Assembly: GCA_051294905.1 (NCBI GenBank)
Contig: CM119372.1
Location: 19,532,001 to 19,596,000 of the forward strand
Length of the DNA: 64,000 nucleotides
Direction: 5' to 3'
DNA from: Botryllus schlosseri
Taxonomy: Eukaryota
Shown: in pieces, positions 1,797 through 45,300 of the stretch
Position numbering within the stretch: the first letter of the stretch is position 1
How the letters are laid out: every line of letters starts with the position of its first letter
The notes under the pieces: model-generated
Told to the model about the DNA's origin: nothing
The model's database searches: none
Seen by the model: the letters and a program-made list of their open reading frames with translations, nothing else
Position numbers and translations under genes: made by a program

Positions 1797-4700
1797 ATGG
1801 GCCTATTCAAAATTCTACAAGGAAAGGGGAAAGCTAAGAAGCCTCGAACTGAAAGCGTGGATAGAAATGGGTCGGCCAAACCGGAGAAACGTCAACATTC
1901 GTCCTCGGGTAACAATATAAGCCATTAAGCATAAGCACTGAGTGCAGTAAGGCTATATCTCTTTATGCGAGAAGTAGATAGGGTATTCCTAGTTAGCCTA
2001 ACTGTAGGCTAAGATAACGGAGAAAGCAAATACGAATGTGCCTGATTTATTTGCTTATTGTCCCGACCGTACGGTATATCGCTATCTGGTGTGGAAATGT
2101 AAACAATTTTGGGAACTGGCTTGTTCAGTTAGCTGTTGATAACCGACGAGCTTGAGTAATGTGCACACTGTTGTGTACTGTACAGTGTAGGCTACAAGGT
2201 ACACACGCATCGCAAGATCTCATTCCGCTGCTTATTCTCAGGGAACAGTAGGTCGACTGGGAGCAAAATGAAGAAGAAAACGAAGAAGTCACAAAAAGAA
2301 AACCAAAATTCCCAAGCGCGTGCTCCCAAAGATGTCTTTCCGAAGAAAAGCATTTCGTCACTAGCAAGATCGTTAAAAGGTGATGACTGGCAAAAACTGG
2401 CATCGGCTCTTGGATTTATGGAAATGGTGAGTCTACAATTGTTCTTGTTAACTACACCTGCTCAACCAAGTTACCCATGTAATTGTAGGCAATATCACAC
2501 TTCACTGGACGAGCAAGCTCCTCTCAAAATACGTATAGTCAGGCATGTCTCATGCTGAGAACGTGGAGGGATCAGATGCCCCTTGAAGAAATATTGCCGC
2601 GACTGACTGACGCCCTAAAACGAATTAGGCGACACGATTTGGCTTTGAAAATGGGATTGGAACTTGGAGTAATAGGTGAGGAGTTTGAGCACAATAACAT
2701 AAAATTAGTTCGTTATTTCGCTTGTGTGACTGTGGATTCTGGTTCTCGCTGGATGGGTCGAATACGTCAGAGCAGCCGAATGAGCCAATCCAAGTTTTGA
2801 CAATTTTCCCTTTTCTGAACTATTTGTCTGTCAGACCTCTGATCATTTATGAACTTTTACGGCAGGAATAGCAGGTAAACACAGCCCACTTGCTTTGTTA
2901 CATCCATGGTATCTTAGCTATCCATAGTCAAAATCGTATTCTTCTTGTCCTTTCGCTTGTAAATGCCCATATATAGCGAAGTCTCTGCGAAAATCGAATT
3001 CTCTTCCGTGATTTCGCTTTGCGAATGCCTAGCCGGGGCATGCCCCGGTAGCGCTCATAACAAGCTTTCACTGTCTATTCTCTCAAAGCCGCGCACAATA
3101 AAGAAACAGTGATTTACTCTCTCCTATTCGTAAAATGGCCGAGCAGGTGGGGCAACATAGCCTGGTCGCCCTTAAGGTGTGATGTAACAATCGTATCTAT
3201 ATCTGAACTCGGTTACCGTCATATGCGTTTAGTCGACCTTTGCTGGTATAGGTCGATTTTGATGGTGTTTCACACCATGATAATTCTTGAAACTTGGTAT
3301 GTCATGTCGTGATGGCGGTATGTAACACTGTCCCAAGTTTCAGGGTTTCTACTTGAAGTTTAGGGTAGTAATTCCGTTTCTGAAATTGAGTGTGTGCTGA
3401 TCCGTCATGTATCGCAAACAGATTTTACTCAAAAGTCGGTATTGGTATCCATTGATTTTGACGATGTTCCATACCGAGATCGGTCATGTCATTTGGTACG
3501 GTAAGTCTTAATGTTAGCATCGAACGCTGTACCAAGTTTCAAGTTTGTCAATGAACTGTGTTAGTGGTAATTTCGTTTCCTAAGTCGAGTGAGAGCTGAC
3601 TCGTCATTTATCGCAAACATATTTTACGCAAAGCCGGTATTGGTCTCCATTGATTTTAACGATGCTCCTTACCTAGATCCGTCATGAGCTTTTGCATGGT
3701 ATGTCTTGATTTTAGTATCGAACGCTGTGCCAAGTCTCAAGGTTGGCACTCAATCATTAGGGCAGCAATTTCGTTATCAATGTCGAGTATGGTAGAGATG
3801 TGCGCTGATCTGACACTTAGCCAACCTAACGCATTGCGGATTTCACGCAAAAGCCGCTGTATCTGTGTTAACGCTAACTGTGTTCCATACTGAGATAGGT
3901 GATGAGATGATGATATCATGAAACAGTTTACTAACATCCTCGGTTTGCATTCAAATATTTACTTTTATTTTATATTCTCCAATGTCAATTTCACCGTGAA
4001 ATTGAGGCCTTCAGGCCATTTGCTTACAATTACAACCCCTGTCAAGCGCGATAGGCCGATAGCTGTTTCGTTTTCGATGGCGGCTAACAGCTGATCGCTT
4101 AATCAGCCTATTCCTCAGTAAATTTTACGCAAAATTCGGTGTTGGTCTGTTCGTATTAATTTTGACAGTGTACCATACCGAAAACTGTCATGAGGCTACT
4201 TCTCGATGATTTCATGTAACAGTGTACCAAGTTTTCGGCTTTCATCCTCGTATTTATTCGGTAATATATTTTCCAAAGGTGATTTTGCAGCAGACATATA
4301 GACACTATAGACCGTAAGCCGTATGTGTCGTGTGACAGTCTCCAGCCTCAAGGCCAAAATTTCCTATGCTGTACCGGGACCGAATTTCCGAGGCTGCTAT
4401 CCGTAGTTCTTCAGAATTATGTTTTGGATTCAATATGACATGTCCAATCTATGAGATAACAATTGCGTATGTGTCCAAACTCGTTGACCTTTCCAGTTGG
4501 CTTACGCAATCTCTCGAGTTATAGTAATTTCCATTTCTGCAGATAATTAGTCAGGTATAGTGCGAACATGAACCGTGTCTATCAATACGCCGTTTACGCA
4601 GTTACCACACTTCAAGTCACAGCTCACCGGCAGACCTCTCGCGGCACATACGTTAAAATCAATGTTGTCGGGAAGTTCGTGTTACCGTACCACTAGTACC

Positions 4701-7700: not shown

Positions 7701-8298
7701 AAATTACACTCATATTTGTACTGTCGTTGGTCATTTTGCGATAGTCGCGAATACCCATCTTTCTATTTCGCAAGTGGCCACCTTCGATTAGCTGTCAAAA
7801 TTATGCGACTCATCGACCAGAACTACATTTCGAAAACACTTGAGCTTGAGTACTTTTCATATCTCTCATTTCCTACTTCTACTTGAAGTAGTTTTGAAAT
7901 CGCTATTTCTACTTGTAATTGAGTTAACATTTCGGTGTTACTTCTACTTGGGTAGCAACGCTGAGTACTTTGATCACCTCCACATCGTCACGACTGCGAA
8001 TTCGCAGGTATCCCAGATCATCGCGTCCGCCAGCAGTTCGCAAAATCTCTACTCTCAAGCACACGTGATGCTCAAAAGATGGCGGCTTCGCACTCATCCG
8101 AACCAGATCATCCCCCGTCTGAAGGCCGGCTTCGTCAGGATTCGCCGACACGACCTGGTGGACCTTCTCAAGATTGGCGCAATCGCCGGGACAGAAGATA
8201 TCTTGCACTTGATCGAGGAACAGCTTCGTGAGAGCAGAGAGCCGCAAGACAGCTTCGGCGCGTCGCTGACGAAAAACTTTTCTGCGTTTCAGCAATAA
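1797..8298 (+). CDS. Tandem death-domain protein, 329 aa; exons 1797-1908, 2242-2426, 2489-2675, 4967-5181, 8008-8298
   Basis: All introns are GT-AG with matching phases (1,0,1,0), and the total of 990 nt is an open frame. Two homologous repeats have the death-domain pattern: DDWQKLASALGF...YSQACLMLRTW...LTDALKRIRRHDLA and EEWKRLAYALGF...YSQAHVMLKRW...LKAGFVRIRRHDLV. The stop TAA overlaps an AATAAA. Confidence 0.85.
3240..4280. repeat. Degenerate tandem repeat, about 198-199 bp unit (about 4-5 copies), in intron 3 of the death-domain gene
   Basis: The motif CCAAGT(T/C)T recurs at 3333, 3532, 3730 and 4227. ATTTTAC(T/G)CAAA..GTATTGGT recurs near 3422, 3620, 3840 and 4122. Boundaries are approximate. 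Confidence 0.7.
5898..6752 (+). mobile_element. Non-autonomous hAT-type element, family C (copy 1)
   Basis: Termini are TAGGGTTGCCATA...TATGGTAACCCTA with a perfect 8-bp TSD GCCTAACT. It is homologous to 26693-27777 and 28463-29569. Confidence 0.9.
7457..7981. repeat. Representative copy of an old, abundant MITE-like family (CAGAGGTGGTC-like ends, AAGTAG/CTACTT-rich); other copies near 60-362, 700-1160, 15700-15890, 16870-17306, 48770-49060, 51350-51700, 52520-53100, 58998-59500, 62050-62310, 62780-63010
   Basis: Shared motifs include CTACTTGAAGTAGTTTT, GGAATTGCTACTTC and GTGGCCACCTTCGAT, with GACCACCTCTG-like ends. Copies are heavily diverged and boundaries are approximate. Confidence 0.65.
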
Positions 8299-12900: not shown

Positions 12901-15900
12901 ATTTCACATTACCCATCACTGCTTATAAGAGGAGAAGAAACTAGTCGGTGAGATGAAATTTTTCTACGCATTTTATTCAGAACACGCTACAGTTCTCAAA
13001 ATGGGTTGAAAAGCAACGGAAAGAAGCGAATAAGTTCAGCAGAGCCGGCCTCACGTATACGCAAAAGCGAATGCTAAAGCTAATCTTGGAGTCTTCCGCA
13101 TTGAAAGAGGCTATTCTAAGAAAGTGAGGAGAAAACCTATTATACTCCTACAATAGATACAGTTGAAAATGCAAATGCGTAGTCCACTGGTGGGAAACAG
13201 TCCGCCGTGTAAGAGGATGCCGTCAAAATGAAATATAATATGTTGTAGCCAACTTGGTTTCAATGTCATCATATCAAAAGGAGCATTGCAAGCAGTGGAT
13301 CCCCGACTCGTAACTCCTGTGTTGTGCAGGGTGTATAGGTTCACTTAGGTTGGCTATGCGTTCTTAGAGGTATGGTCATTAACGTAAGTTAAGTACTCAA
13401 GTTAACTACGTCTACTTTTATTCTTAGGACTCAAGTAGGCGTTGCCTACCGTACTATACTTATTAGACGGGTTATACGTTTAGACCATTCCACCATCTAC
13501 CGAAAAGTAGAAAATAGTTTATTGTAGGTTTTGCGTGAACTTGCACACAACCTGTTGAGAAACTATTACAACTATATAGAAGTATGTAGGTTTTCAAATC
13601 TTTGATATATGATTATTATTGCATTTTTCCATGGTCTAATTTACCTCGTCGGTATTCGCAGGAAACTTGTTGGTTTGGAATCACAGATCAGTACAGTCTA
13701 CAGCAAAGCCACTGTATGCAAACTCGGAAAGTGCTACCATTTTGAGCCGGGATTGATCAAAATAATGCGGACATCACGCGATTACGAGTGAGTATCCATC
13801 ATGTCCTGCTTCCTGGGATAGCCAGTAAGGTTCATCAACAGCTTGACTTCACGAATTCAATCCCAGCGAGTTACTGTGGGCTTGGAAAGGTTGGAGAGAT
13901 GCGATCGGACCGAAGACCAGAAAGGACTGGACCGCGGCGGAAATTCTACGAAACAAAGGCGCACGAGAGAACGGTTAGTTCCTTCGAGATTGTGAAGTAA
14001 ATTGGAAGATTCGAAGAAATGTCAAACTATACTAGAAGATTGCCCCGAATAGATAAATCTTTTGTAGGGGAACGAGAATTTACAACAATGGATACACACC
14101 ACGATTCCAATCCCGTAATATTTTAAAAATTAGTCCGTGATGACATCTTATGAGCAAACATATGGAAAAGATACACTCTGCCAATTCATATACGCTTGTA
14201 TTGTTCTGTGGAATGTTGGATTAAAATCACATAGATAGGTTTAGGTATAGTACAGTGGTTCTCAACCATTTTGTCTTCGAAGAGCTTCTTGGAGGTACAG
14301 AACTTCAATATACAATTAAATAGTATATTCATATTGAAATGAACCCGAATATTTTCGGCTGACACTCGTCAGGGGTAATCTACTAGTTGCTGACGATTAC
14401 CCCTGACGAGTGTCAGCCGAAAATATTCGGGTTCATTTCAATATGAATATACTATTTAATTGTACATTTTGTCTTCGTAAAATAAGTTTTGGGTCGAGTT
14501 TAGCTCAGTCATCGTGCAACCGTCATCGTGCATTGAGCAAATAGTATCAGAGGCTAGTGATAAACAGCAACAATTTGACTTTTCCTGGAAATAGTATCAT
14601 ACTATGTGAAAATTGTGGAGACTTTCATTATTTAGAGCAAATTTTGCAGCTATGTCTCTTAAAATGCGTGTTCGTGTCTTGAAAATCCGCGCGTTCCATT
14701 TTATATAAACGAGAGGCCATAAAGATAGGTGGAGCAAATAGAATAATAGCGTGCAACGCTAACGACGACACCTTTATATATGATCGCAACATCTTCGGCC
14801 CTAGAACAGTTCTGGCAGAACTAAGAAACAGATTTTGTATCGAGCACATCCCGTCCAGCCTAATCATTACTATCCGCAGCGGAAGACTTCTAGGATAGTA
14901 TATCACTGGAGAAAAGAGATTCCGTGCTGTGGTTTCAATCCCTTTGGAACAGATTAAACAAAATTGTATATTTGTGTATTGTTGAATGTATATTTCAACC
15001 GACTGTTCACTTATGTTCTGAGACTGACCACTTCAAATCGGAAATATTTTGCAAACATTGCGAAGTTACCGAGATTATGAGTTTGCATAGTATGGGTTAT
15101 TTATTCTCAGACGGCTGTTCTGTTAATGTGAGTCATGAAGGTTTAGCAGCTAAGCCTAAGAATCGAAACTGCCTTAGACTGCCCTTTCCCTAACTTAGAA
15201 AATTAAAAATTAGGTTATCAATCGTGTTGTAAATTTAGAGGCTTTGCGGACCCCCTGAAAATGCTTCGCGGCTCCCGGGGGTCTGCGGACCCCCGGTTGA
15301 CAACCACTGGTATAGTATGAACTCGAGATACTTCGATAAAACGAATGTCATTCTAAATAACACAATGAAATAAATAGAAGTATAGAAGTAACGCCGTAAA
15401 TGTCTACACAATTACAAGTCTAGCGATGCTCAAGACGTCAAAACGTCTTCCAGTGTAAGTAGAAAATGTGGGGTCTGAAATCTTCTCAAGTAAGAAGTTT
15501 CAATATGTTGATTGTCGAGGGGTCGCGCACGCGTAGTAGTTAATCGGAGTTGGCTATACTTACGGAATTGCGAGATGCATCTATGCGACTAACGCAAATG
15601 ACTAACGAGTACAATCATGTAAAATATATTCAGTTAACTGAATAAACGGGATGTTTCCTACGGTTCTTATGATATATTTCACTCATAAATGTGACGCAAA
15701 CTCATCGCAATACTACTTCTACTTTTCAAAATCCAACGTTTAATAAGTATGGAATTCTGCTTGAAGTACTTCCAGGCGAAGTGGAAGTGGTCTAAATCTA
15801 AAGCATCACTTGAATATAAGTAGTGCAAGTAGGCAAAACATACTTGAGTACTGCGACTAAATAGAACTATTCGTTAAGAACCAGTGACACCCAGTGACAC

Positions 15901-18900
15901 CCCGGAATATGCATAATCGTAATCATATGGTAAACTTAATATCCAGCCAATTTATCCGCAAAACACATTCACTCTGAAAGCAATGTCTCGCCGATATCGA
16001 TTTATCTTCCAGAACGACCAAGTGCACGGGCCATTTGATGCGGAATGACAACGCAAAAGCAGATTGACGGTTTATGGCCCTTATATATCAATGATTCAAT
16101 AATTTACTAACGTTTTTAGGTTACGCCGACATCGGAGATTACCTGAGATCCACATACGAGACCCCGGATTTCGAAAAAGATATTGATGAGTTGTGGGACT
16201 CTTTAGAGCCGTATTATAAGGAGCTGCACGCCTATATTAGACGGAAACTCCATCATGTGTACGGGAACAGGGTTTCATTGACAGGGCCGATGCCTGCTCA
16301 CATACTAAGTAATCCTAATCTTCGAATATTAGCAATTCATGTTGTGTGCGATATGGGAATCAATTTCCCCATTTAAGGTGATATGTGGGCGATGAAATGG
16401 GACGGTATCAGAAAGATAGCAGAGCCCTATCCAGATGTCCCAGGATTTGCTGTGACGGAGGGAATGCGCAAAAAGAACATGACGGTCAATCAGATGTTCA
16501 AACTGGCCGATGAATTTTACCGTTCCCTCGGTAAGCAGTTTTTTACACACGGTTTCCATTTTCTTTATGGTTTAAAATCGATAATTTTACTAAAAAGCCT
16601 ATAGAAGTGGGTCGTGCTGCAAGTCGGCAGATGCTGGATTATAATTAAGTCGGTGTGGTGTAAATGACCATTGTAGTCGTAAAACATCATGAATACTACA
16701 AAACGACAACTTCCGTGTAGTTGAGAGTTAGAGATAGACGCTATTTGTCGGTTCATATTGCTGTAATTTTGTCGTGATATCCATCGGCCGCAAAATATCG
16801 ACTGCGCGTGGAAACGTATAGTGGGCTAATCAATGAACGTATAGTGGCCGAATATCGTATTTTAAATGAACATCTAATGAACATAGTTTAGGAAAATACT
16901 ACTCACGCCTTACAATTTGTAAAGTACAAAGTAGTTTTTGGGTATATGTTTGCTTCAACTCTCTGTGTGAAATTGCCGGGAATATTGAACTTTACTGCAC
17001 AACTGGGCGAAATAGCCTCTGTATCACGATATCTGAATTTCTTATTGAATACTTCACCCATTTCTAAAACACATTTGGCGTTTGACCTCAGTTGCTCAGA
17101 TGCACTTTGGAATTTCAGAAGTAGAAACCTCTCATTACTTGTTAAAAGTGCTCGACCTCATAACAAAAAACATTTTTGAACTACTTACTTGAGTTGTTTA
17201 TAGACCATTCTTTTTCTACTTTCACTTCAAGTAGCTTTAACTTGTCTTGGGAATTGCTACTTCCACTTTTTATTTGAGCAGATATTTATACCTTCGCGAC
17301 CACTAGAGAACAGGGAAACTGTAGGATTTATCCAACTACCTAACCAACCTGATATGGAGATGACTAATTGTAACTATAAGTACTTTGTTACCGAAATATA
17401 TGCTCTTCGGTAGTGCCCATCTCCACGTCTTCACACCAAATCAGTCCCATGCTCTACTAATGGAATTTTAACCTATTTCAGGCCTACCCAAGATGACGCC
17501 AGAATTTTGGCAAAATAGCATGTTCACGAGACCGAAGGACAATAGGTCGGTTGTTTGCTACGCGTCGGCACACAACTTGGAAGGCGATGATGTCAGGTAT
17601 CGCGATTACCAGACAGCAACCCAATTCCGCTTCAATCAATTTCAAATAACCGTTTCAGGGTTAAGATGTGTGCGGCGGTTACCGGCGAATACCTTTATGT
17701 AGTTCACCATGAGATGGGACACTGTCAATACTACCTTGCGTACAACAGGCATCAACCGGAAATATTCCAGGCAAGTCACCAGTCGACTTGGGTGCATATG
17801 TGTAGCTAGATATCTGTTGGTTGCAAAGTGACATAACGTGACGATCTGCAGCCAGTCTAACACGGCACACATATAGCCCAGATCTCGTTAATTCTTCTCA
17901 AGATTGATAGACCGCACCTGGTCGTTTCGAGATCTTTTCGTGATATCGCATTCAGTGGCGTAGTTAGAAAAATAGAAAGAGAGAACATGTTTTATGAGTT
18001 CAAGAGAACTCCCCCCTTGAGCCCCCAATAGGGTGAGCATCGAGAAACCCAACATATTGGGGCTTGGGGCATCGTCCTTCATACTCTCATAATTCTACGG
18101 GGAATTCCATCACCGATCTTTATATTTCCGTAGCGAAAAAAGTGTGGCATTACGCGATTCACGAACGATTTGGATTTGCTAACAGAGGACGCAAGACTTT
18201 TCTGTTTGTATGCCTATATCAGCTTACTACGCACCAAAGTTGGCGTGCATTAATTTCGTAGACACGCGAAGAATTTTGCAGATTTTCGTACTGAAATGTA
18301 ATTGATTGTATTGATGCGAAAATATCAGTCTTTGAATTTTTTGTTATAGAATTCTGAGTATAATTGTAATCGCAGACTGAAATCCAAAATGTCCGTACAG
18401 GGACATAAAGGGATACAAGGATATATATCCCTGGGTCCTTACCACAACGTAAAACCCGCCAAGAAATTATTCCAACTCTGGTCGTATGTAAAGCAGTGTT
18501 GGGATCAAGTCACTACCTTCGAGTCACGAGTCATTTCGAGTCATTGCACATTTTGACTCGAGTCAAGTCAAGTCAATCGATTTTCGAAGGTGACTCGAGT
18601 CAAGTCAAGTCACTCGTTTTTTGCAGGTGACTCGAGTCAAGTCGAGTCAAGTCAAGTCACGAGTCAGGTCACAATTCAAGTCAATTAAATTGGTTTTTCG
18701 AAGAATGAGTGATGATTCAAAGTCATTACATTTTGCTAGATTTGTGAAAGGCGGATGTATTGGTCATATATCTTGCATTAATAACGAGTATAAAGTCTAA
18801 TATACATGCCAAAGGGCGTTGTATCGCTCACGCAGACGTAGAGCAGCAAATAAAATACTTGAGGCAAAATAGAGGATCGAATACGAAGCGTCGAGAAGTT

Positions 18901-21900: not shown

Positions 21901-24488
21901 CATTATTCCTTCAATCAAACACACACCTCTGTCGATAAAATATTGATGAAATGGCATGTAGATAAGATGTATGTAGGTAGGGTATTCATAAATGACCGGT
22001 ACTCAAGAAATCATTCAGTTTGGAACCATTAGTTTTTTAATATTGTCATCATTTCAAAACATCACAAAACTGCGATACAATGAAAAGATAGGAGGGTGTC
22101 GAAACAACTTGGAGTAGTCTTTTGACTTGAATGCGGACATGCTCGACGACTGTCGGATAGCCGGCAAGATGCTATTCCACAATTGTGGTCCGGCATACTT
22201 GATAGAGCAATGCGTTTTCTTGTATTCCGAACTGATCATATGGTAGTTGTTCTTCGTTGACGCGCGTGTTCTGTACTTGTGCGCTTTTGACTCCGAGGTG
22301 AAGTTGTCAATCAGTAGGCCTATCAGTTGTCCGTGTCTAGTGCCCTAAAACGCAATTCTAACAATCCGTATTGACTATTGAATCCATCTGCATGGTAATC
22401 CATACGAAATCGCTGAAAATTCGGGGTATGGTGTTCTTTTGTACATGTACTGTAGGTTTTTGTGTTTGTTTATTAAACAAAAAGATTCAGTGCTTCTCAG
22501 CTGTCGGTCTGTTGCATCATGGTAAAATATTGCGAACAAAGAAATGCATCACGGTCAATAATTATAATGGTATACAAAAAGAGATTCCAGAAAATAAGAT
22601 TTCGTCACGTTAAGACAATACAATCAAGAGTCAAAACCATAAATGGCGATTAGAGGAAGGGTCCTAAGACAATGTACTGCATAGGGTTACCATACGTCCT
22701 GTTTGAAGAGGATGTATCCTTTTTTTGTCAATAAATTGAAAGTGTCCTCAGAGGTCGTCCAAATGTCCTCTTTTTTGGGAATTTGACCTCTTTTTCTAGA
22801 AAAAGTATTAAAATTCGATCAAAAACTCGACCCCGAGTTTTAGTCAACACAGTACTATCGGTTGAAAAGTTTTCAAAATCACCGGTTTTATTTTCCGGTG
22901 CTAGAGCTTTATGTATTTTAGAAAAGAGTCCTCTTTTTCGTATCTCAAAATATGGTAGCCGTAGTACTGTAGGTACAGTGTATTAGTGCGTACTTACAAC
23001 AATATTAATTTACAAATATCTCACGCATTTCAGAAAGAAATACCAAGGCTTGATACCTCCGGTGATGCGTACCGAAAAGGATTTCGACCCAGCATCAAAA
23101 TATCATATCGCAAATTTTGTGCCGTACGTCAGGTACGACTCGAATCTGCCCATTCTTCAGTTTATAAAGAATGTTGAATTTTACTATACTGTTCAGATAT
23201 TTTGTCAGCCACATACTGCAATTTCAATTTCTGGAAGCTTTGTGTGATCTGGCTAAACAGACTGGACCTCTCCACCGATGTGACTTTTCCGGATCTAAAA
23301 CAGCCGGGGAAAAGTTCGGGTATGAATAAGCGCGTGATCACAATATGACTGCATACGTTCTTTATCGTGAAGTTTGTATCATCATGCGTTCAAATGAGCA
23401 ATGAATCGAAGTCCCTGCTCTCGTTATAACGCTGTGCTGACCTGTCATACTCATAATTGTCAGGTCGTCTCAATTCCCGGCGCTTACGAGACCAGATTAT
23501 GATAATGTGAGCACTGAACACTGAGAACATCCAAGATCATTATTAACCCACGTCGAAAAGTGTAGCTATAGCAGTAGGCCTATATTATAGTGGCTATAGC
23601 AGTAGGCCTATATTATAGTATACTACTATTTATTTCTCCTATTTCTAATTTCTTTCGGAATTGATGATCGCCATTAATCGCTAGCCAAAATTTCAGTTGA
23701 TATGTAATATTATTGTATTATTGGAGATAGCGTAGTGGTGAGCGTCGGCGCCATTCAAGAAGGCAGCCCGAGCTCGATCCTCGCCGTCGAAGGTTATTCT
23801 GGGCTCCTCGTCCCCCGTGTCGTTGTTCTAACGGCGACAAAAAAGCTCAGTAAATAGACCCGATAAAGTAAGAAAAAGAGCAAGAAATAGCTTATATAAC
23901 GGGACCGACGAAGAAAAAATAACATCAAAGAGGACTATGACATCGGGCAGTAGGTCGAGGTATAGATGCCAGTTCCAAAGACCTCAACTGGTTGGTCGTT
24001 CGGCATCCCCCTATCTGCTCGGCTTACAGGACATTGTGTATCTTGCATAATCGCGTTGTACATTTTGAAAATATAATCTGTCGATCGATTGACTATAGAT
24101 TACTAACCTGCCTGTTAATCATCTATAATTGGACGATATATTGAAAGTTCTGTCTACCATTGCATTGTCTAATTTCTGCATCGCCACTACCTATTGTCGG
24201 CCGATCTCTCATAGCTACAGCAAACACGCAGCGCAGATTACATTCGCGATGCACAATTTCCCATATACTGGTAACATCGCCCCATTGCCGCAAAAAAGAC
24301 TTTACAATACACCTTCCATGTACAGGAAAATGCTTCAAATGGGACAGAGCCAGCCTTGGCCCGTCGCGCTCCATGAACTGACCGGCACGCGGAAGATGAA
24401 CGCTAGTGCCGTTATTCGCTACTTTCGACCGTTGCTGAACTGGTTGAAACAAGAGAATCAACGAATGGGAAATCACGTCGGATGGTAG
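9966..24488 (+). CDS. ACE: Angiotensin-converting enzyme-like peptidyl-dipeptidase (peptidase M2), single domain, secreted, about 691 aa; exons 9966-10182, 10778-10846, 11298-11354, 12761-12891, 12981-13123, 13662-13787, 13867-13973, 16120-16308, 16378-16530, 17482-17596, 17659-17770, 21420-21546, 21625-21769, 23034-23132, 23197-23319, 24326-24488
   Basis: There is a signal-peptide-like N-terminus ([15 protein letters not shown]). M2 motifs are [34 protein letters not shown] (HEMGH at 17708-17722), [17 protein letters not shown] and PYVRYF, and the protein ends at VGW* with no TM helix. Phases are consistent over 2076 nt. Exons 2-3 rest on splice signals and phase only. Confidence 0.92.
14280..14464. 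mobile_element. Penelope-like retroelement 3'-end remnant with inverted repeat, nested in the hAT
   Basis: It has perfect 70-bp inverted arms (14311-14380 / 14395-14464) and is flanked by the 13-bp direct repeat CATTTTGTCTTCG (14267-14279, 14465-14477). It contains a hammerhead core. The same terminal 31-mer occurs at 37651. Confidence 0.65.
14399..14432 (+). ncRNA. Minimal type I hammerhead ribozyme motif (mirror copy on the - strand at 14343-14376)
   Basis: ACCC-CTGACGA-G(TGTCAGC)C-GAAA-ATATT-C-GGGT gives the CUGANGA and GAAA cores, a 4-bp stem I, a 1-bp stem II, a palindromic AAUAUU stem III and a UUC cleavage triplet ending at 14428. Confidence 0.6.
18494..21335 (+). mobile_element. Non-autonomous hAT-type element, family A, with subterminal GACTCGAGTC/AAGTC arrays (copy 1)
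   Basis: TIRs are CAGTGTTGGGAT...ATCCCAACACTG with a perfect TSD ATGTAAAG. It is homologous to 59915-61886. Confidence 0.92.
18939..20830 (+). mobile_element. hAT-type element nested inside family A copy 1
   Basis: Termini are CAGTGGCGTATCCAG...CTGGATACGCGCCTG with a perfect TSD CATCTACA. Confidence 0.88.
21900..22340 (-). mobile_element. 5'-truncated LINE (CR1/L2/Crack-like) 3' end
   Basis: The minus-strand peptide HKYRTRAS...[29 protein letters not shown] matches the typical C-terminal tail of CR1/L2-group ORF2. Boundaries are approximate. Confidence 0.7.
22682..22963 (+). mobile_element. Short MITE with TAGGGTTACC termini, related to 58671-58963
   Basis: Termini are TAGGGTTACCATACGTCC...TATGGTAGCCGTA. 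The TSD is GTACTGCA/GTACTGTA (1 mismatch). Confidence 0.75.
23723..24060 (+). mobile_element. tRNA-derived SINE-like sequence in the last ACE intron
   Basis: An A-box-like TAGCGTAGTGG and a B-box-like GCTCGATCC lie at tRNA spacing, with no acceptor stem, followed by a non-tRNA body. The 3' end is uncertain. Confidence 0.55.
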
Positions 24489-39342: not shown

Positions 39343-42300
39343 ATGGACCCGAACGATAAGAATTTTCCGAAGGGACCCGCAAATCTGAAGCAATCAGATG
39401 ACGAATTTACCCTGTCGGACGGTAAGTCAGTCAGTCATCTAAGTTCGCAGATATTACTCATAAGGCCGGCCGGCGGCTCTCATAACAACTGTTAACGATC
39501 GAAATTTACAACCAGTCAGTAACGATTACGCGTATGTTTTCCTACTGCTATTGCGTTTTTTCTCGACGAAACGCATCACTGATGCTGACATTTGATTTTA
39601 ATTGTTTCTGTCAATTTACCTCTGCTTTGCCTTCGAGTGATCTATATCAGCGTTGGGACTCATCCGCATATTACGATGACGTATAGGATGCTTTAATTAA
39701 ACCCATCGGTATACGTATTCTAAACATTCGTATTTTTGCTTTTCAGATATCTTATCGCTAATCGTCAACGGTGAGCATCGCTTTACATTTGTTCTTCTAT
39801 ATCGCGCGGAAACTGCTGGGGTGGTGGTTTTTCGTTGTAAATTTCAGCGAGATAAGTCTTACCGACTTTCGCCTGCGATAAACCATCTCGCACGCACATT
39901 GCTTATGTGGATATGTTATTTGTTTCAGCCGAAAGTCCTAACGACGATCAGTTCGTACCAGAAGTGGAACACCGTGAGTTATTTGCGTGTCTTTCTACCA
40001 AATTCTATCCGCAGTAGTTATAGACAAAATACTTCGTAATTTGTCCAACTGTAATAACAATCGGAAGCTTTCGCGTCGGAATTGTGCGTCGTCGCGTTAC
40101 AAAAACGATACATCGGATTTAATGCTTTTGGAATTGTCACGTGGTCGATATCCATTGTGCTGGTTTAGCAATGTCAACACCCATCGACAATTTCAACTTT
40201 GGCAGTCAAGCGCTAATAATACCACACTTCAATAGTTCAAGAACTCTTAACTTGTTAACTTCGCGTAATCCAAGCGCTGTTCAGCGAAGGTCAGCGGTTG
40301 AACGCCATGGTCACTGCGGGATGCGGGAAATTAAGCTGTAACCACGTTACACTTTACTGCGTTTATCACTTAACGATAGCCGCCTAGGTGACAAATAGCC
40401 ACATCTGGCGGTTGAGGTATTTATTACCTGTCGCCTTTCCGAAGTTGAAAATCGCGAAGCATTTGGCTTCAGTTTGCGCAGTGATTTAACGATCGCTGCG
40501 TGTTGGCACTGCGTTATCTTTTCGAAATGAAATACTTCCGAGTGAGGCGCTTTGTCAACAACAAGCCAGCCGAGTGTGTGTCGCACACGCTAGCCTCGTA
40601 TCAGAACCAATTTCCGCCATTCTAAAAAAATGAAAACTTGCATTCCGCAAATCCCCGTTATATAATTTGATCCGGGCGTACCAATTTCCTACCTGATGCG
40701 CTTTCCGAAATCGCCATCAAGTAGTAAAGTGACTAAGTCTCGTTGATGAATATCGTGACCTATGATTCATGGCGATATCCCGTAGCGCAGAGGCGGCCAA
40801 GCACACATACACTACACTGCCGTTACAATCGACGGCATTTTACTCGCTCTAGATTTTATGAATGGAACGCATTGTTTCGTAGCTGTCGAGCGTAGAGACG
40901 GAGGAGTTCTATTTCACGCTTCGTCGCACCGAGTGTCGTACCGCGTATGTCCCGTATGTGCAGTTGTGCACTGTATAGTACACTATACAATCCTTTCCAT
41001 TGGTTATAAACACACTCAACTCAACACGCGAGTTCTCTTGTGTGCGCGGTGCGCGCTTTCTCGAACGGCAAGCAAACAAACACGGTACGGGCGTCCGCCG
41101 ATTTTCGGAGGCACCCACGAAATTTACGATGGCCACTAAAGTTTGATAAATGCCCAGCTGTCAATTTAACCGCGCGGCGCGCTGAATATCCACGGAGCAA
41201 GCGCTTCGCGAGGGTGTAACGCAAATAAAAGCGCCCGGAGTAGAGAGTCGGGGTCAACGATCTGATTGAATGGTCTTAAGTTGTGAAAAGCCTGAATCTT
41301 TCTCTAAGCAAACAGTTTGTTTAACATTACTTCCGGAACACTCTCGCGAGTGCCTTTGAGAGCGGAGATTACTGGTGTAGCGCCATAAGTCCACTTCAAA
41401 ACCTGTATTGTCGATTTCGTACCCGCACATAGAAAAAGGCGCCTGGTGTTTAAGAAATTACTGTAATTTGAGTGGTGGGCACTATGATTCGAGTGCTCGA
41501 ATCCGAATCAAGTATTAATCGGAATGATTCGAGTCAAATCATGGCATCTATGGATCTTTATCGAGTTACAAAATTATACACCCATTTCCACTTTGAGATA
41601 TATCTATCAATGAGAATTATAGTTTCCATACTTTCGAACCCTCAATTGATCGTATTGCGGCATCCAAAACACGTAGTAGGCCTACGAAGCTAATCACGTC
41701 AGTGGAAATCGTATTTCCGTGAATTTGTGAACGTGATCAACGACGCTGTCACAAAGTGAATGGAACAGGTACGATCGAAAATCTACCAAAATATCCTTAA
41801 TGCGGGGGAGAACTGGCATACAAGGTACATATTCGACATTTCCGCACTGTCCATACTCTTACTCGAAACATTGAGGTGTCGTATTTTCCCATCCCAAGTG
41901 CCGATACGTAATAAAGCTCAAAATATTATGTATCGTAACGCTTTTTATTCTCCTTTATCTCAGTGGTCCACTTTGACAACGACACTTCAAAACCGGACTC
42001 GAAGGTGCCCGAATGCACAAATTCCTCCTTGGGATACAACACCGCCACATCAGACGGCAGTATCAGCGACCCCCTAAACCCGCTGCAACTCAACAGTCAC
42101 TTTGACGACGTTTTCGCCCCCGACACCCCGCACGGGCGAGACCAAGATCCGTGCCTATCGCAGCAGCCGCAGGACTTATCCGTGCGACGCAACCCCGCTT
42201 TCAACCCGCACCAAAATCAAGCCTCAACCCCAATTGAAGACACGCTAAGCAACGATGGGGGTGAAGTTGGGATGTTACGCGGTTCTGATGATAGATCTGC

Positions 42301-45300
42301 GTCCAGAAACTTACAGCAGTTCGCGGCTAGACAACATAGGCGCAGTACCCAAGTCCCTAACACTCTCGACATCAGTCACGGACACCGGGAAGGCACAATC
42401 AACCCGTATCCGAATTTCTACTCTCCTACCTACACAGGGCCTGTGGTATCGCCTATGAGCGATTGCGGCGCTCCGACAAGGAATCAGTTCCATCCCGAAC
42501 GGCAAGGGGATATAAATTCGAGAAATCGCTCATGTAGCGCGGATTACTACGGACATCACCCTCATGCCGTGTTCTCAACCCAGGGTAGCGGTCATCGGTA
42601 CGGAAACGGCTCGCAGCAATTCCGCGATTCATCCGCGCCAAACCGACCCGAACACATCGACACTGTAGCGGAACCCCCGCCGCTGTCACATTTGCCGGTT
42701 TTGGCGCCCGGCTACCAGCGCGAGCAAGCTGGCGTTAATGCGAGCCGGAATACTGTCACGCCGACGGGCCGGGAGCATCAGCGGTTGTCTGGATATCACG
42801 CGGTGGCGGACGATAACGCAAGAGAAACGGGATACCAGGGCCTGCATCACTCTTTGGATCGAAGAGAGACGGGCGCGGAGTTCAGAGCCCCGCATCCGTG
42901 GCCTGGTAAGGAAGATTTCCTGTGAATTCGGCACTAGGTGAATTCGTCATCCGAAAGGAATTAACTAATATTATTATGAAAGTGATGCATTAATATTTAT
43001 TGTATTAATAAAAATTCTAAAATGAATGTTTCACTAAATATAAGCGTGAATTGTGATATACCGCACTTGGCGCATTCGGAACTTGGTGAACTCGGCATGT
43101 CGAAGCCGTTGGTGAATTTGGCATGTTGAATTGGGCGCACTAGCTACTTTAAAAATTGTTGATGAACGCCATAACCCCAATCCTAACATGATCCGACCTC
43201 GCATCGTTGAAAGGTGGACCGCGCGCTCTCATCCTCCCCGTCCCATGACCAATGGCCATGTGATATATGAATGCCCTGCTTGACCTCTGCATATCACTAT
43301 TCACGCTCACATTTATTGAAACGATCATTTTCGAATTTTATTAATGCAATGTTGATGCATCGCGTTCTTACTAATAACAAGTACACGTTACGTTTCTAAT
43401 GACGATTTCACCAATTGCCATATATCACAATTCACGCTCACATATAATAACTTATATAACAATAATAGTTATATTTATTATCACGAACGCCGAATTCGCC
43501 CAGAGCCGAATTCACTGACAACCGTAAGAAAGTACGATTATGATACGGTGTCGCTTAAAACGCGGACCCGTGACCGGGGTAATTTTTTGCCGCGAGGGGT
43601 ATTTTGATTGTGGCATTCGTCACGGCGGTTCAAGTTTCCGTAATTTTGCATTTCTTTAAAATCCTCTATTTTTCGACGTCTTACAAAACCACTCTGTCGG
43701 AAATTTCCGGTGTGCACCAGACAAGCGGTATGAAGATTGATGAACGATCGCTAAAATACCGAGGCGCACCGCAAATCTCGTTAACTCAGCGCTGTTATAC
43801 ACAACGTATACGGAGACTTATGATAGTGGTAATCGCCCTGTACACAAAAGCGTTCTTAGCGCGTTCGCAACGCTACAATAGTCGCAAACGATGAGTATTA
43901 TGAAGTGCGCTGTCAGAGCGCGCGCGTAATGTTAATCCGCGGATCACCGACAATGGCATACGCGACCGCTGTAACCGCTTATTTGTGTCCCAAGGCTAAA
44001 ATGACGTAAGGTTTTTGCCGATTTCTGATGACGAGTGTGTGTGCGGAGCGCCACACTTTTTTCCGTGTTGTTTGTCGGCATACGATTCGTAATTATTTTG
44101 GGTTTGGATAATGATGGGAAAAACTTGAGCGTGTTTGGCTTTGCAGCATTGGAACCTCAATCGAACGCATCGTGGCGTGTCGCCGAGGCATGGGATCTCA
44201 TCCAGATTACTTCAGGGTTCTGACAAATCGATGTTTGCTATGAGAAGTTCTAATTCACTGGCGCTCCACCGTGAAATTGAGATTCACGCGTGGCTGACTT
44301 GCGTAGTGGTGCTGCGCTGTTTAATTGTGGATTTTTCAATGTTTAGGTCTAACATAGGGCATACCCATACCCATGACACAACAACTTTTTCAGTGATTGA
44401 CATACTCGAACAGAAACAGTACTATTCTTATGCATTGCTAGGCGCCTATACACCGAGTATTAGCTTTGAATGTTGCTGTATAAAATAAGCTAAATCAAAG
44501 CCTACGAGTACGTTGGGCAAAGCCTATAATAGCGACACACGCCAATACTCAGGGTGGGTTTCAAAAAGTTGTCTTAATTTAGACCTGGCTTAAGGCCAGT
44601 GATTGACTTGCTCAAGACGCCAGACGTCGGCGGTCTTAATTCGGTTTCAAATCTCAATTTGGCGCCGCGCTCGGCCAAGTCCGTTAGTTGCGAGTAATTA
44701 CTGTCTACTTCGTCGCTGTAGCGAGTTCAACACGGAACCGAGGCCAGTTGTTATTGTTTTGAGTTGCTTGCTGATGTCGTATAGTACGGTAGCGATGCTG
44801 TGAAGGAATACGGAATTGCTTGAGCTATTGAAATTTACGGACGGATGATCAGAACGGAACCCCGAGGAAGTATCTGGCAAATGATCAGCACGTTATCGCA
44901 AAGTATTCGAAGAAATAGTGCGGCTGTGATACCGATTTTTGAAGACACAACTGCCCAGCATTTTGGCATATTAATTGTTGAAGATTATGCTCTTGGAGAT
45001 GCTGAATATCCACTGAGGACTTATTACTCACGCCACTATTATGCCCAAGAACTTTGACCGAAAAAAGTCACTATTGTTTTCATGCATATCGTTACCCTCT
45101 GGCAGAGCGCAGTGCTTTGTGTTTAAGAAAATATCTCGCGCATTGGCTATATTCAAAGAAGAACCTCAGAATATCGATATGACAATAGCCTGCTTCTGCC
45201 TTTACAATCCTAGCAATGCTGACAAGGCAGATGGAGCTGAATTTGATGACATACTGCAACTGGAAGCGTTGACCGCACTCCCACAGTATCGACTCCTACA

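What the first reader, a model, noticed from the sequence alone, without database searches (positions are those of the whole stretch)
14267..14477. Perfect 70-bp hairpin encoding a minimal hammerhead ribozyme on both strands inside an ACE intron
Seen: arms 14311-14380 and 14395-14464 are exact reverse complements around a 14-nt loop, flanked by a 13-bp direct repeat. The arm reads ACCC CUGACGA G-UGUCAGC-C GAAA AUAUU C GGGU. Known: Penelope-like retroelements carry minimal type I hammerheads with tiny stem II and palindromic stem III that cleave as dimers, and they often insert with inverted 3' repeats. Inference: this is a young PLE insertion nested in a hAT. The ACE pre-mRNA would contain both a ribozyme and its perfect antisense, giving a long dsRNA that could block cleavage or be a Dicer/ADAR substrate.
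Basis: partly seen in the sequence, partly recalled or inferred. Interest (0 to 1): 0.75.

Follow-up and report, generated by a model that had tools for sequence, protein, structure and literature searches.

The report
Young fold-back Penelope retroelement insertion
The hairpin is a very recent, dead-on-arrival double copy of the tail end of an abundant Penelope-like jumping gene, which carries that family's small hammerhead RNA motif and sits in an intron of an ACE-like gene; this is a known kind of insertion.

Summary
Exact 70-nt inverted arms (14311-14380 / 14395-14464) surround a 14-nt centre and are flanked by a 13-bp direct repeat.

It is a 185-bp head-to-head insertion of the 3' end of a canonical Penelope-like element (PLE). 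Evidence for the family:
- The unit is 2,692 bp and its frame encodes RT plus a C-terminal GIY-YIG-like region.
- At least 5 copies have uninterrupted frames.
- The hammerhead core has about 10,800 copies in the 495-Mb genome.

The right arm is the last 84 nt of the element. The left arm is the last 70 nt plus a 31-nt 'tail', inverted. Both arms are identical to an intact copy (185 of 185 nt).

Contigs of three sequencing runs join 14266 to 14465 with one copy of the 13-mer. That is the empty site, so the repeat is a target-site duplication and the insertion is polymorphic or hemizygous.

The insertion lies 26 nt inside a hAT-like element (TIRs, 8-bp TSD), in an intron of a Peptidase_M2 gene.

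The hammerhead reading holds by comparison. Related PLE lineages keep the core, covary stem I, keep stem III palindromic and switch C3-G8 to U3-A8. Rfam models miss the motif and cleavage is untested.

Stem II is a single pair. Its loop covaries with a leader upstream, forming a pseudoknot I did not find described.

The parts
14246..14253 (.). 8-bp target-site duplication (left copy) of the host hAT-like non-autonomous element
   Evidence: The same 8-mer recurs at 15310-15317, just outside the two TIRs. Another copy of this family (L036) also has an 8-bp flanking repeat, with 1 mismatch.
14254..15309 (.). hAT-like non-autonomous element that hosts the insertion. It is about 858 bp without the PLE insert. 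TIRs lie at 14254-14268 and 15295-15309.
   Evidence: The termini are inverted complements. Window 14479-15309 matches other genomic copies at 67-84% identity, with a sharp common left boundary at 14479-14481. No transposase frame was found.
14267..14279 (.). 13-bp target-site duplication of the PLE insertion, left copy
   Evidence: Exact direct repeat. The empty-site contigs keep only one copy.
14280..14310 (-). 31-nt PLE 'tail': the sequence that follows the element's 3' end in tandem copies. It is present on this arm only.
   Evidence: Identical to the first 31 nt of the next unit in the intact tandem copy. In an arbitrary sample, 10 of 11 head-to-head pairs have a tail on exactly one arm.
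14311..14380 (-). Left arm: the last 70 nt of the PLE unit, inverted. It contains the hammerhead core (about 14343-14376 on the minus strand) but not the leader strand.
   Evidence: 101/101 identity with the intact unit, tail included. Motif match at 14344-14372 on the minus strand.
14381..14464 (+). Right arm: the last 84 nt of the PLE unit, in sense orientation relative to the ACE-like gene. The 14-nt 'loop' of the hairpin (14381-14394) is simply the extra 5' element sequence of this arm.
   Evidence: 84/84 identity with the 3' end of the intact unit. It ends at the same base as the 3' end of the full-length copy in L031.
14389..14432 (+). Complete hammerhead-like motif:
- leader 14389-14394
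- stem I 5' strand 14399-14402
- C3-A9 14403-14409
- G10.1 14410
- loop II 14411-14417
- C11.1 14418
- G12-A14 14419-14421
- palindromic stem III 14422-14427
- C17 14428 (predicted cut after it)
- stem I 3' strand 14429-14432
   Evidence: Coordinates read. No Rfam hammerhead match.
14443..14445 (+). ATG that opens the PLE frame in tandem copies, 15 nt after the predicted cut site. Here it is followed by only 19 nt of element.
   Evidence: The translation of the intact copy runs through this region, with M at residue 13 of the stop-to-stop frame.
14465..14477 (.). 13-bp target-site duplication of the PLE insertion, right copy
13847..13975 (+). Upstream exon of the Peptidase_M2 (ACE-like) gene, profile positions 139-177
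   Evidence: Pfam E = 1.1e-5, 24.7 bits against a cut-off of 23. RNA reads lie here with the first mate on the minus strand.
16098..16313 (+). Next exon of the Peptidase_M2 gene, profile positions 170-242
   Evidence: E = 8.8e-19; E = 5.1e-22.

Best explanation
The feature is a dead-on-arrival, head-to-head ('fold-back') insertion made by an active family of canonical endonuclease-positive Penelope-like elements. How it most likely arose (inferred from the anatomy and from the published in vitro behaviour of a PLE enzyme):
1. The element's GIY-YIG nuclease nicked both DNA strands 13 bp apart, inside an older hAT-like element in an intron of an ACE-like gene.
2. Each 3'-OH primed reverse transcription of PLE RNA at one of two internal start sites, which lie 31 nt apart. 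This is why a 31-nt 'tail' sits on one arm only.
3. Both cDNAs stopped after 70-84 nt and were joined at a 2-nt microhomology.
4. Repair of the stagger produced the 13-bp target-site duplication.

The copied segment is the pLTR-ORF junction, so each arm carries the family's type I hammerhead core. That motif is an evolutionarily maintained RNA structure of this PLE clade:
- a 4-6-bp stem I;
- a stem II reduced to G10.1-C11.1, whose loop pairs with a leader 8-11 nt upstream of C3;
- a palindromic stem III, which implies dimers.

At this locus the motif is very probably inert. The ACE-like pre-mRNA would pair it with its perfect antisense in a 70-bp duplex, no second sense copy is nearby to dimerise with, and the fragment has no coding capacity. 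The insertion is so recent that the empty allele is still found in three samples.
For: Shown by tool results:
- Anatomy of arms, centre and direct repeat.
- Family size. The 32-nt core with up to 3 mismatches has 5,465 + 5,359 matches in the genome and 0 in the reversed control.
- Full-length unit of 2,692 bp between two same-strand cores, with an 860-codon open frame.
- Protein features. RVT_1 E = 7.8e-9, the DKG motif and a GIY...YVG...R...H...E C-terminus, and a GIY-YIG Pfam hit at E = 0.022.
- Relatives. 877 proteins with E <= 1e-10, some with PF01541 on record.
- Recent activity. At least 5 places have about 100% identity and no stop, out of 53 scored from 20,261 candidates.
- Both arms are identical to the intact unit, 84/84 and 101/101.
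- Empty-site contigs in X1, X5 and X6 join 14266 to 14465 with 13 shared letters.
- In an arbitrary sample of 26 sites (the first 30 exact-core loci on contig C1), 11 are head-to-head pairs. Ten of these have a tail on exactly one arm, 1 is ambiguous, and none is tail-to-tail.
- Other hairpins have their own flanking repeats of 10-12 bp (read by eye).

From the literature:
- Inverted 5'-truncated copies and a one-sided 30-40-bp tail are typical of PLEs (PMC8557442, passages).
- Both strands are cleaved and extended, there are two internal RT start sites, and the tail is the sequence between them (PMC11167929, main text).

Hammerhead evidence:
- All core positions are present.
- Nine related sequences from at least 5 lineages keep the core, covary stem I (six different pairings), keep stem III palindromic in 7 of the 9 (three versions) and show C3-G8, U3-A8 and U3.G8.
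- On a 10-sequence alignment, 95.8% of cells pair against 89.2% in shuffles (0 of 500 reach it) and 14-48% when partners are slid.
- A generic min-hammerhead finder gives 15 hits in 78 PLE loci from metagenomes and 0 in the reversed control, and those checked lie just after the ORF end or just before its start.
Against: - No contig or read that I was shown bridges the junctions of the filled allele (14279/14280 or 14464/14465). The insertion itself therefore rests on the assembly alone. X1, whose flanks are letter-identical to the window, shows the empty site.
- Rfam's hammerhead models give no match at gathering score in the window, nor at E <= 10 in 14200-14560.
- Predicted thermodynamics favour two local hairpins (-12.2 kcal/mol) over a monomeric hammerhead-like fold (+5.2 kcal/mol).
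- No pile of RNA read ends appears at the predicted cut site. The library type does not select such ends, and 896 of 899 reads come from other copies.
- The GIY-YIG Pfam score is below the curated cut-off (15.5 against 22.6 bits).
- The comparative set holds few independent events, and several copies are decayed: L066, L069 and L119 have broken cores, and L067 and L108 each break one leader pair.
- Eight loci share the same 28-nt centre junction, which simple random truncation does not predict.
Confidence: 0.88

Rival explanations
1. The hairpin is a copy of a small non-autonomous fold-back element that moves as a unit, with the hairpin itself as the template. On this reading it was not formed anew at this site.
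For: The 28-nt centre junction recurs at 8 places in the genome with up to 2 mismatches, the window's own included. About 20 of the 40 scored candidates span the whole hairpin at 83-99% identity. L040, L041, L042 and L046 have nearly the same junction but different flanks, and three of the four show their own flanking repeats.
Against: - The junctions differ by 2-4 nt between copies.
- Copies with the same junction carry different subfamily markers, and each carries its marker on both arms: A/T in the window and L040, G/C in L041 and L046. This fits independent formation from different template RNAs better than descent from one hairpin master.
- Centre junctions vary widely in the sample of head-to-head pairs, with arm lengths from 30 to 1,497 nt.
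- The hairpin lacks the ORF-proximal RNA that the one PLE enzyme studied needs (PMC11167929).
- 7,350 copies continue upstream past the junction point.
Confidence: 0.08
2. The insertion is an assembly or chimeric-read artefact and does not exist in the animal's genome.
For: Contigs of all three DNA-type runs laid on the stretch show the empty site, including X1, which is identical to the window in the flanks. No listed piece bridges the insertion's ends.
Against: - An artefact would not create an exact 13-bp duplication of the target.
- It would also not reproduce the family's specific insertion anatomy: one-sided 31-nt tail, 3' end at the canonical base, head-to-head arms.
- De Bruijn contigs break in a repeat with about 10,000 copies, so the absence of a bridging contig is expected even if the filled allele is in the reads.
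Confidence: 0.05
3. The hairpin is a functional RNA of the host at this locus: a self-cleaving switch in the ACE-like pre-mRNA, or a hairpin or miRNA precursor gene.
For: The fold is very stable. There are sub-threshold Rfam matches to miRNA precursor models, the best being mir-m107-1 at 39.1 bits. The sense arm lies on the gene's strand.
Against: - The miRNA scores are far below gathering (39 against 83 bits) and merely reflect any long hairpin.
- The allele is polymorphic and absent from three samples' contigs.
- The sequence is identical to thousands of transposon copies.
- No RNA read lay on the unique intron flanks in the part of run X23 that was read.
- The ribozyme arm would be locked in a 70-bp duplex.
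Confidence: 0.03

Closest known systems
Insertion units of canonical EN+ Penelope-like elements (Penelope/Poseidon-type): pLTR, adjoining inverted 5'-truncated copy, one-sided 30-40-bp tail (Evgen'ev & Arkhipova 2005, recalled; Craig et al. 2021, PMC8557442; Frangieh et al. 2024, PMC11167929)
   Same: RT followed by a C-terminal GIY-YIG-like domain. Tandem units forming pLTRs. Head-to-head 5'-truncated arms with the 3' ends outward. A tail of 31 nt on one arm only. A target duplication of variable length. A hammerhead motif at the pLTR-ORF junction.
   Different: Nothing essential. This copy is unusually short and symmetric, so it reads as a near-perfect hairpin. The element's two 3' ends lie 22 and 53 nt after the ATG, whereas the RT start sites in the Anolis element lie 111-118 nt into the ORF.
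Minimal type I hammerheads of metazoan PLEs (Cervera & de la Pena 2014, PMC4209133; Lunse, Weinberg & Breaker 2017, not readable here)
   Same: Type I topology. Short stem I (4-6 bp). Full catalytic core, including the natural U3-A8 variant of the C3-G8 pair. Palindromic stem III implying action as dimers. Location in the pLTR. Thousands of copies per genome.
   Different: The published min-hammerheads have a large helix II of 6-8 bp preceded by one unpaired base, and are said to lack tertiary contacts. In this clade stem II is the single G10.1-C11.1 pair, and 5-6 nt of its loop covary with a leader strand upstream of stem I.
Hammerheads with a Watson-Crick helix between the stem I and stem II peripheries (Perreault et al. 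2011, PMC3088659, cited in PMC10085705) and the non-circularly permuted type-SGC hammerheads (PMC10085705)
   Same: A helix ties the stem I side to the stem II side. As in type SGC, a short linker (2-5 nt here) joins a stem II-side strand directly to a stem I strand, which would hold the two stems together.
   Different: Here the strand that pairs with loop II lies 5' of an open stem I. The order of the three conserved blocks is the ordinary type I order, so this is not one of the described permutations. I read only passages of these papers.
Non-LTR retrozymes of animals (Cervera & de la Pena 2020, PMC7229834, search listing only; Li et al. 2026 preprint, first part read)
   Same: Short non-coding PLE-related repeats carrying type I hammerheads.
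   Different: Retrozymes are direct tandem repeats that yield circular RNAs. This is a single inverted pair with a target duplication and no tandem partner.

Membership tests
Penelope-like element, canonical EN+ type | Reverse transcriptase domain with the PLE-typical DKG motif | tested here: met
   RVT_1 E = 7.8e-9, 36 bits against a cut-off of 29.6, on the 860-codon frame of L031. 'KPDKGSG' was read in the translation, and D282, K283 and G284 are invariant among 12 relatives. That DKG is diagnostic comes from PMC8557442.
Penelope-like element, canonical EN+ type | C-terminal GIY-YIG endonuclease | tested here: inconclusive
   The Pfam GIY-YIG hit on the last 149 residues has E = 0.022 and 15.5 bits, below the 22.6-bit cut-off. 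The motif (VVY...YVGRT...R...H...E, with Cys/His) was read by eye, and Y739, Y749, G751, R760, H764 and E835 are invariant in relatives. PF01541 is on record for relatives P0013 and P0085 and for 27% of one Atlas cluster.
Penelope-like element, canonical EN+ type | Tandem units forming pseudo-LTRs | tested here: met
   Same-strand cores lie 2,692 bp apart around the ORF. Tandem intact frames sit at C16:20952628 and C16:20955320. The sequence runs on from the 3' end into the next unit.
Penelope-like element, canonical EN+ type | Adjoining inverted 5'-truncated copy and a 30-40-bp tail at one end only | tested here: met
   In the window, the tail at 14280-14310 is on the left arm only. Eleven of 26 sampled sites are head-to-head pairs, and 10 of the 11 have one tail.
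Hammerhead ribozyme, type I | Conserved core: C3 U4 G5 A6 N7 G8 A9, G12 A13 A14, A15.1-U16.1, H17 | tested here: met
   All are present at 14403-14428. They are kept in the intact copies of related lineages, with C3-G8 replaced by U3-A8 or U3.G8 (CG:3, UA:3, UG:4).
Hammerhead ribozyme, type I | Stems I and III supported by covariation | tested here: met
   Stem I takes six forms: ACCC/GGGU, GCCC/GGGU, GUCCC/GGGAU, AUUCC/GGGAU, CAUACU/AGUAUG and GCUA/UAGC. Stem III stays palindromic in 7 of 9 sequences (AAUAUU, AAGCUU, AAAAGCUUUU); no palindrome was resolved in L064 or L079. The number of independent events is small.
Hammerhead ribozyme, type I | A stem II of several base pairs closed by G10.1-C11.1 | tested here: not met
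   Only 9-10 nt lie between A9 and G12. G10.1-C11.1 is kept (GC:8, GU:1, other:1) but no further hairpin pairs are conserved. Instead loop II pairs with an upstream leader.
Hammerhead ribozyme, type I | Match to a curated hammerhead covariance model (Rfam RF00163 and relatives) | tested here: not met
   There are no matches at gathering score in the window and none at E <= 10 in 14200-14560. Genome-wide, the best RF00163 score is 22.8 bits against 34, with 73 of 70,463 candidates scored.
Hammerhead ribozyme, type I | Self-cleavage after H17 | not testable with these tools
   RNA run X23 shows no pile of read ends at the predicted site, but the library is not suited to detect them and the reads come from many copies.
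hAT-like non-autonomous DNA transposon (host element) | Terminal inverted repeats and an 8-bp target-site duplication | tested here: met
   TIRs at 14254-14268 / 15295-15309 and the same 8-mer on both sides. A second copy (L036) also has an 8-bp flank repeat. That 8 bp points to hAT is recalled knowledge. No transposase was found.
miRNA precursor families (sub-threshold Rfam hits) | Score at or above the family's gathering threshold | tested here: not met
   The best hit is mir-m107-1 at 39.1 bits against 83. All others are lower.

The most novel reading that the evidence does not exclude
This clade of Penelope-like elements (the window's family, two further families in the same genome, and relatives of 47-64% protein identity in metagenome contigs) may carry a hammerhead architecture not yet described. 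Stem II is cut down to the single G10.1-C11.1 pair. Most of 'stem II' is then supplied by a 5-6-nt leader strand that lies 8-11 nt upstream of C3 and pairs with loop II.

The leader/loop pairs seen are GCUGAC/GUCAGC, UCUGAC/GUCAGA, UCCGAC/GUCGGA, ACUGAC/GUCAGU and GCAUU/AAUGC.

Geometrically this is an H-type pseudoknot. One unpaired U crosses the deep groove, and a 2-5-nt linker ties the far end of this helix to the far end of stem I, so the connectivity itself would hold stems I and II side by side.

Loop II can alternatively pair with the core's own CUGA. The leader could therefore also act as a switch that frees the core, so that 5'-truncated copies lacking the leader (such as the window's left arm) would stay locked off.
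Probability: 0.3. Interest if true: 0.55.

Novelty: new member of a known kind. Interest (0 to 1): 0.33.

Why it matters
For the locus itself, little. It is a textbook fold-back insertion of a Penelope-like element, a pattern already described and already met elsewhere in this scan.

Three things give it some value:
1. The empty allele is still present, the arms are identical to intact copies, and several copies have open frames. The family is therefore active or was so very recently, and the site is a clean natural record of one insertion event (13-bp stagger, two 3' ends 31 nt apart, 2-nt microhomology). It matches the two-strand, two-start-site behaviour seen in vitro for a lizard PLE.
2. 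A perfect 70-bp inverted repeat inside a transcribed intron is a natural test case for double-stranded RNA responses and palindrome instability, with carriers and non-carriers in the same population.
3. The comparative data point to a pseudoknotted, stem II-less hammerhead in this PLE clade. If confirmed, it would widen the known architectures of the most common self-cleaving ribozyme and explain why standard models and descriptors miss about 10,000 copies in one genome.

Tried and rejected
- A whole-genome DNA search with the 70-nt arm found nothing, not even itself, so the tool skips very common words. Pattern searches replaced it.
- Using the upstream CUGACGA (14390-14396) as the true core was rejected. 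No G10.1-C11.1 pair and no stem I can be drawn, and that heptamer is the leader strand.
- A 'split stem II' in which the leader replaces the whole 10.x strand, 10.1 included, was rejected. C11.1 faces a mismatch in every lineage, while G10.1 and C11.1 are conserved.
- A transcription start or a hammerhead-cleaved 5' end was tried as the cause of the recurrent centre junction, without support. RNA reads mostly continue upstream of 14379 (223 loose ends carrying element sequence), and no arm starts at the cut site.
- Within-family variation among 76 copies looked like neutral decay and was uninformative.
- A search of the Cervera 2014 supplements for this motif found 0 occurrences in 2 files; file 1 was not searchable.
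- Lunse et al. 2017 is not held.
- The viral-contig scan gave no relative, and the genome-contig scan gave one 515-nt fragment without a UTR.
- Sequencing-run search: no RNA holder is listed for this stretch.
- Protein names from the homologue search were uninformative, nearly all being unnamed.
- L079 could not be aligned by MAFFT, because its core was placed on the others' leader. It was left out of the formal pair count and analysed separately.
Full report
**Observation**

The sequence at 14267-14477 is as described.
- The repeat finder reports inverted arms 14307-14380 / 14395-14468 (74 nt, 99% complementary) with 14 nt between them.
- It also reports an exact 13-nt direct repeat at 14267-14279 and 14465-14477.
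- As RNA the stretch folds into one long hairpin at -131.7 kcal/mol, with z = -24.6 against 200 shuffles.
- The pattern CUGANGA-N(4-14)-GAAA-N(3-9)-CGGG occurs twice in the 64-kb window, once on each strand inside the arms. Chance expectation is 0.02.

**What the arms are**

The 32-nt core, allowing 3 mismatches, has 5,465 forward and 5,359 reverse matches in the window's 495.5-Mb genome, and none in the reversed control. The listing shows many close minus/plus pairs, and same-strand pairs about 2.7 kb apart.

One such same-strand pair (locus L031) encloses an 860-codon open frame. Its features:
- an RVT_1 domain at E = 7.8e-9;
- the KPDKGSG (DKG) motif;
- a C-terminus reading VVY...C.C.C.YVGRT...R...H...E;
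- a weak GIY-YIG Pfam hit on that C-terminus, E = 0.022 and 15.5 bits, below the 22.6-bit cut-off.

Relatives are plentiful. There are 877 proteins with E <= 1e-10 among 8,000 scored, up to 64% identical, and two of the 120 listed have PF01541 on record. Atlas clusters are eukaryotic RT families, one of them with GIY-YIG in 27% of its members.

The unit is 2,692 bp. Its 3' end is the same base at which the window's right arm ends. In tandem copies the sequence runs straight on into the next unit, and the first 31 nt of that next unit are exactly the extra 31 nt (14280-14310) on the window's left arm.

At least five places in the genome have about 100% protein identity and no stop codon. Families of 88-89% and 68-70% identity also exist. 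Only 53 of 20,261 candidates were scored.

This is a canonical EN+ Penelope-like element that is active or was so very recently.

**Anatomy of the insertion**

- Right arm (14381-14464): the last 84 nt of the unit, 84/84 identical to the intact copy.
- Left arm (14280-14380): the last 70 nt plus the 31-nt tail, inverted, 101/101 identical.
- The 14-nt 'loop' is simply the extra 5' element sequence of the longer arm.
- The two arms meet at a 2-nt overlap (read).

This is the published PLE insertion form: an inverted 5'-truncated copy next to the main copy, and a 30-40-bp tail at one end only (PMC8557442, passages).

The form also fits the in vitro behaviour of the Anolis element. There both target strands are cut and extended, reverse transcription starts at two adjacent internal sites, and the tail is the sequence between them (PMC11167929, main text).

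I took the first 30 exact-core loci on contig C1 as an arbitrary sample. They represent 26 sites.
- 11 sites are head-to-head pairs.
- 10 of those 11 have a tail on exactly one arm, and one older pair is ambiguous.
- No tail-to-tail pair occurs.

The window's hairpin is therefore a typical product of this family. It stands out only because both arms are short and nearly equal.

**Is the insertion real, and how old is it?**

Four runs were laid on 13800-15000. In each of the three DNA-type runs (X1, X5, X6; three samples and three studies), one contig joins 14266 directly to 14465. The contigs are 2,501, 4,550 and 1,371 nt long. Each skips 198 nt, and 13 letters fit on either side of the joint.

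This is the empty site with a single copy of the 13-mer. The direct repeat is therefore a target-site duplication, and the insertion is absent from at least one haplotype in each sample.

X1 is letter-identical to the window in the flanks and may be the source sample. If so, that individual would be hemizygous.

No piece shown to me bridges the filled junctions. Contigs break in a repeat with about 10,000 copies, so the filled allele rests on the assembly alone. I rate an artefact as unlikely, because an artefact would not produce a target duplication together with the family's exact insertion anatomy.

The A>G at 14318 and T>C at 14457 are mirror-image subfamily variants. They appear in the DNA runs too, so they are not editing.

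**Context**

Peptidase_M2 exons lie on the + strand at:
- 13606-13788 (profile 96-141; 22 bits, just under the cut-off);
- 13847-13975 (profile 139-177; 24.7 bits);
- 16098-16313 (profile 170-242);
- onward to 24276-24485.

The feature therefore lies in an intron. This is inferred from exon order, as no splice reads were seen.

The insertion sits 26 nt inside a hAT-like non-autonomous element. Its TIRs are at 14254-14268 and 15295-15309, with the same 8-mer on both sides. Other copies of this element are 67-84% identical. This host element is present in the empty-site contigs, so it is older than the PLE insertion.

In RNA run X23, a few reads lie on the exon at 13841-13963. None lies on the unique intron flanks. 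Of the 899 reads on the hairpin, 896 fit only partly, so they come from other copies.

**The hammerhead**

By the standard numbering, the + strand reads as follows:

| Element | Position |
|---|---|
| Stem I, 5' strand | 14399-14402 |
| C3-A9 | 14403-14409 |
| G10.1 | 14410 |
| Loop II (7 nt) | 14411-14417 |
| C11.1 | 14418 |
| G12-A14 | 14419-14421 |
| Palindromic AAUAUU (stem III) | 14422-14427 |
| C17 | 14428 |
| Stem I, 3' strand | 14429-14432 |

Evidence against a ribozyme:
- Rfam gives no hammerhead match at gathering score, nor at E <= 10.
- RF00163 reaches only 22.8 bits anywhere in the genome, with 73 of 70,463 candidates scored.
- The predicted minimum-energy fold is two local hairpins at -12.2 kcal/mol, against +5.2 for a monomeric hammerhead-like fold.
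- No pile of read ends appears at the cut site.
- The published metazoan PLE min-hammerheads have a 6-8-bp helix II (PMC4209133, parts 1-2 of 4 read). Here there is room for only 1-2 pairs.

Evidence for a ribozyme is comparative.
- The 68-70% family in the same genome changes A-U to G.U in stem I.
- It changes C3-G8 to U3-A8. This is the natural core covariation reported for Cercyon PLEs in PMC4209133.
- It changes the centre of stem III from UA to GC, which keeps stem III palindromic.
- It changes nothing at the invariant core positions.

PLE relatives fetched from metagenome contigs (78 loci) extend this.
- A generic min-hammerhead finder gives 15 hits and 0 in the reversed control.
- The distant relatives (30-40% identity) show the standard long-helix II type just after the ORF end or before its start.
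- The closer relatives (47-64% identity), and a third family in the own genome (L150, just upstream of a homologous ORF start), share the short type.
- Stem I takes six different complementary forms.
- Stem III is AAUAUU, AAGCUU or AAAAGCUUUU in 7 of the 9 sequences. No palindrome could be resolved in L064 or L079.

**An upstream leader pairs with loop II**

In every lineage, 5-6 nt that end 8-11 nt before C3 are complementary to loop II:
- GCUGAC/GUCAGC
- UCUGAC/GUCAGA
- UCCGAC/GUCGGA
- ACUGAC/GUCAGU
- GCAUU/AAUGC

For the intact versions, shuffles of the upstream 30 nt reach the observed length in 27-61 of 5,000 trials. For L079 the figure is 217 of 5,000.

I tested the whole structure on a 10-sequence alignment. 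L079 was left out because MAFFT misaligned it, and three decayed copies were kept in.
- 95.8% of cells pair, against 89.2% in shuffles (0 of 500 reach it) and 14-48% with slid partners.
- Two of the six leader pairs change on both sides.

The number of independent events is small (about five lineages), and two copies each break one pair.

The pairing is topologically compatible with the active fold as an H-type pseudoknot stacked on G10.1-C11.1. That compatibility is my inference, not a computation. It could equally be a competing or switching structure, since loop II can also pair with the core's CUGA.

A helix between the stem I and stem II peripheries is a known kind of hammerhead tertiary contact (PMC10085705, passages). 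Reviews describe PLE hammerheads as lacking such contacts (PMC6155905, passages).

A search for papers holding 'hammerhead', 'Penelope-like' and 'pseudoknot' listed 14, and none is evidently on this subject. I did not read them all. Lunse et al. 2017 is not held. Its content and supplements may already cover this.

**Consequences at this locus**

Only the right arm holds the leader (14389-14394). The left arm is truncated just before it, so 'a hammerhead on both strands' is true for the core only.

In the ACE-like pre-mRNA the sense motif would face its perfect antisense 14 nt away, and there is no second sense copy to dimerise with. Self-cleavage here is very unlikely. The expected species is a 70-bp duplex hairpin.

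Whether that hairpin is processed or edited could not be tested.

**Unexplained**

The same 28-nt centre junction (up to 2 mismatches) occurs at 8 places in the genome, the window's own included. In contrast, 7,350 copies continue upstream past that point. About 20 of the 40 scored candidates span the whole hairpin.

These copies have different flanks, and three of the four aligned show their own flanking repeats. Their junctions vary by 2-4 nt. They also carry different subfamily markers, each present on both arms. I therefore favour a mechanistic hot spot over a hairpin master copy. The cause remains open.

**Verdict**

The thing is a new member of a known kind, in agreement with earlier notes of this scan on other genomes. 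The hammerhead variant of this PLE clade is the part worth a specialist's look.

Noticed in passing
L062:250-560 and L056:250-560 (alignment A2): Between PLE families of 68-70% protein identity, the 3' UTR keeps an invariant TGACGTCATA block (a CRE-like palindrome) about 80 nt upstream of the hammerhead. The roughly 77 nt from the ATG through the tail is also kept at about 87% nucleotide identity. These are candidates for the internal promoter and for the RT-binding or RT-initiation region.
   Followed up: no
window 14443-14445; L031 4570-4580 (minus strand): The only early ATG of the 860-codon frame lies in the 3'-terminal 22 nt of the unit. A complete ORF therefore exists only across a tandem junction, with the start codon in the upstream pLTR. 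This fits the need for more than one unit.
   Followed up: partly
G000:C2:368700-392100 (outside the window): Further Peptidase_M2 exons on the minus strand, with each profile segment matched two or three times, lie about 19 Mb away on the same contig. The window's gene is thus one of several ACE-like genes in this genome.
   Followed up: no
window 2489-2800 and 7792-8298, + strand: Two open frames give weak Death-domain hits (E = 1.5e-4 and 3.9e-4, both just under the cut-off). They may be exons of a death-domain gene upstream of the ACE-like gene.
   Followed up: no
G000:C2:34054564-34165870: Six copies of a core variant (loop II ending in U instead of C) are spaced about 21.7 kb apart on the same strand. 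This suggests a tandem segmental array of roughly 21.7-kb units that each hold a PLE fragment.
   Followed up: no
G000:C12:24286738-24322374 and C6:11273591-11284772: The 68-70% PLE family forms long arrays of intact 859-codon frames at about 2.7-kb spacing, in both orientations. It too looks recently active.
   Followed up: no
window 14479-15309 and its copies (L036, L037, L039, L043, L044): The hAT-like element family carries repeated GCGGACCCC-type motifs near both ends. The window's copy has lost one of them next to the PLE insertion site.
   Followed up: no
window 41939-42925, + strand: This 328-codon frame is the longest open frame in the window and has no Pfam match at E <= 0.001.
   Followed up: no
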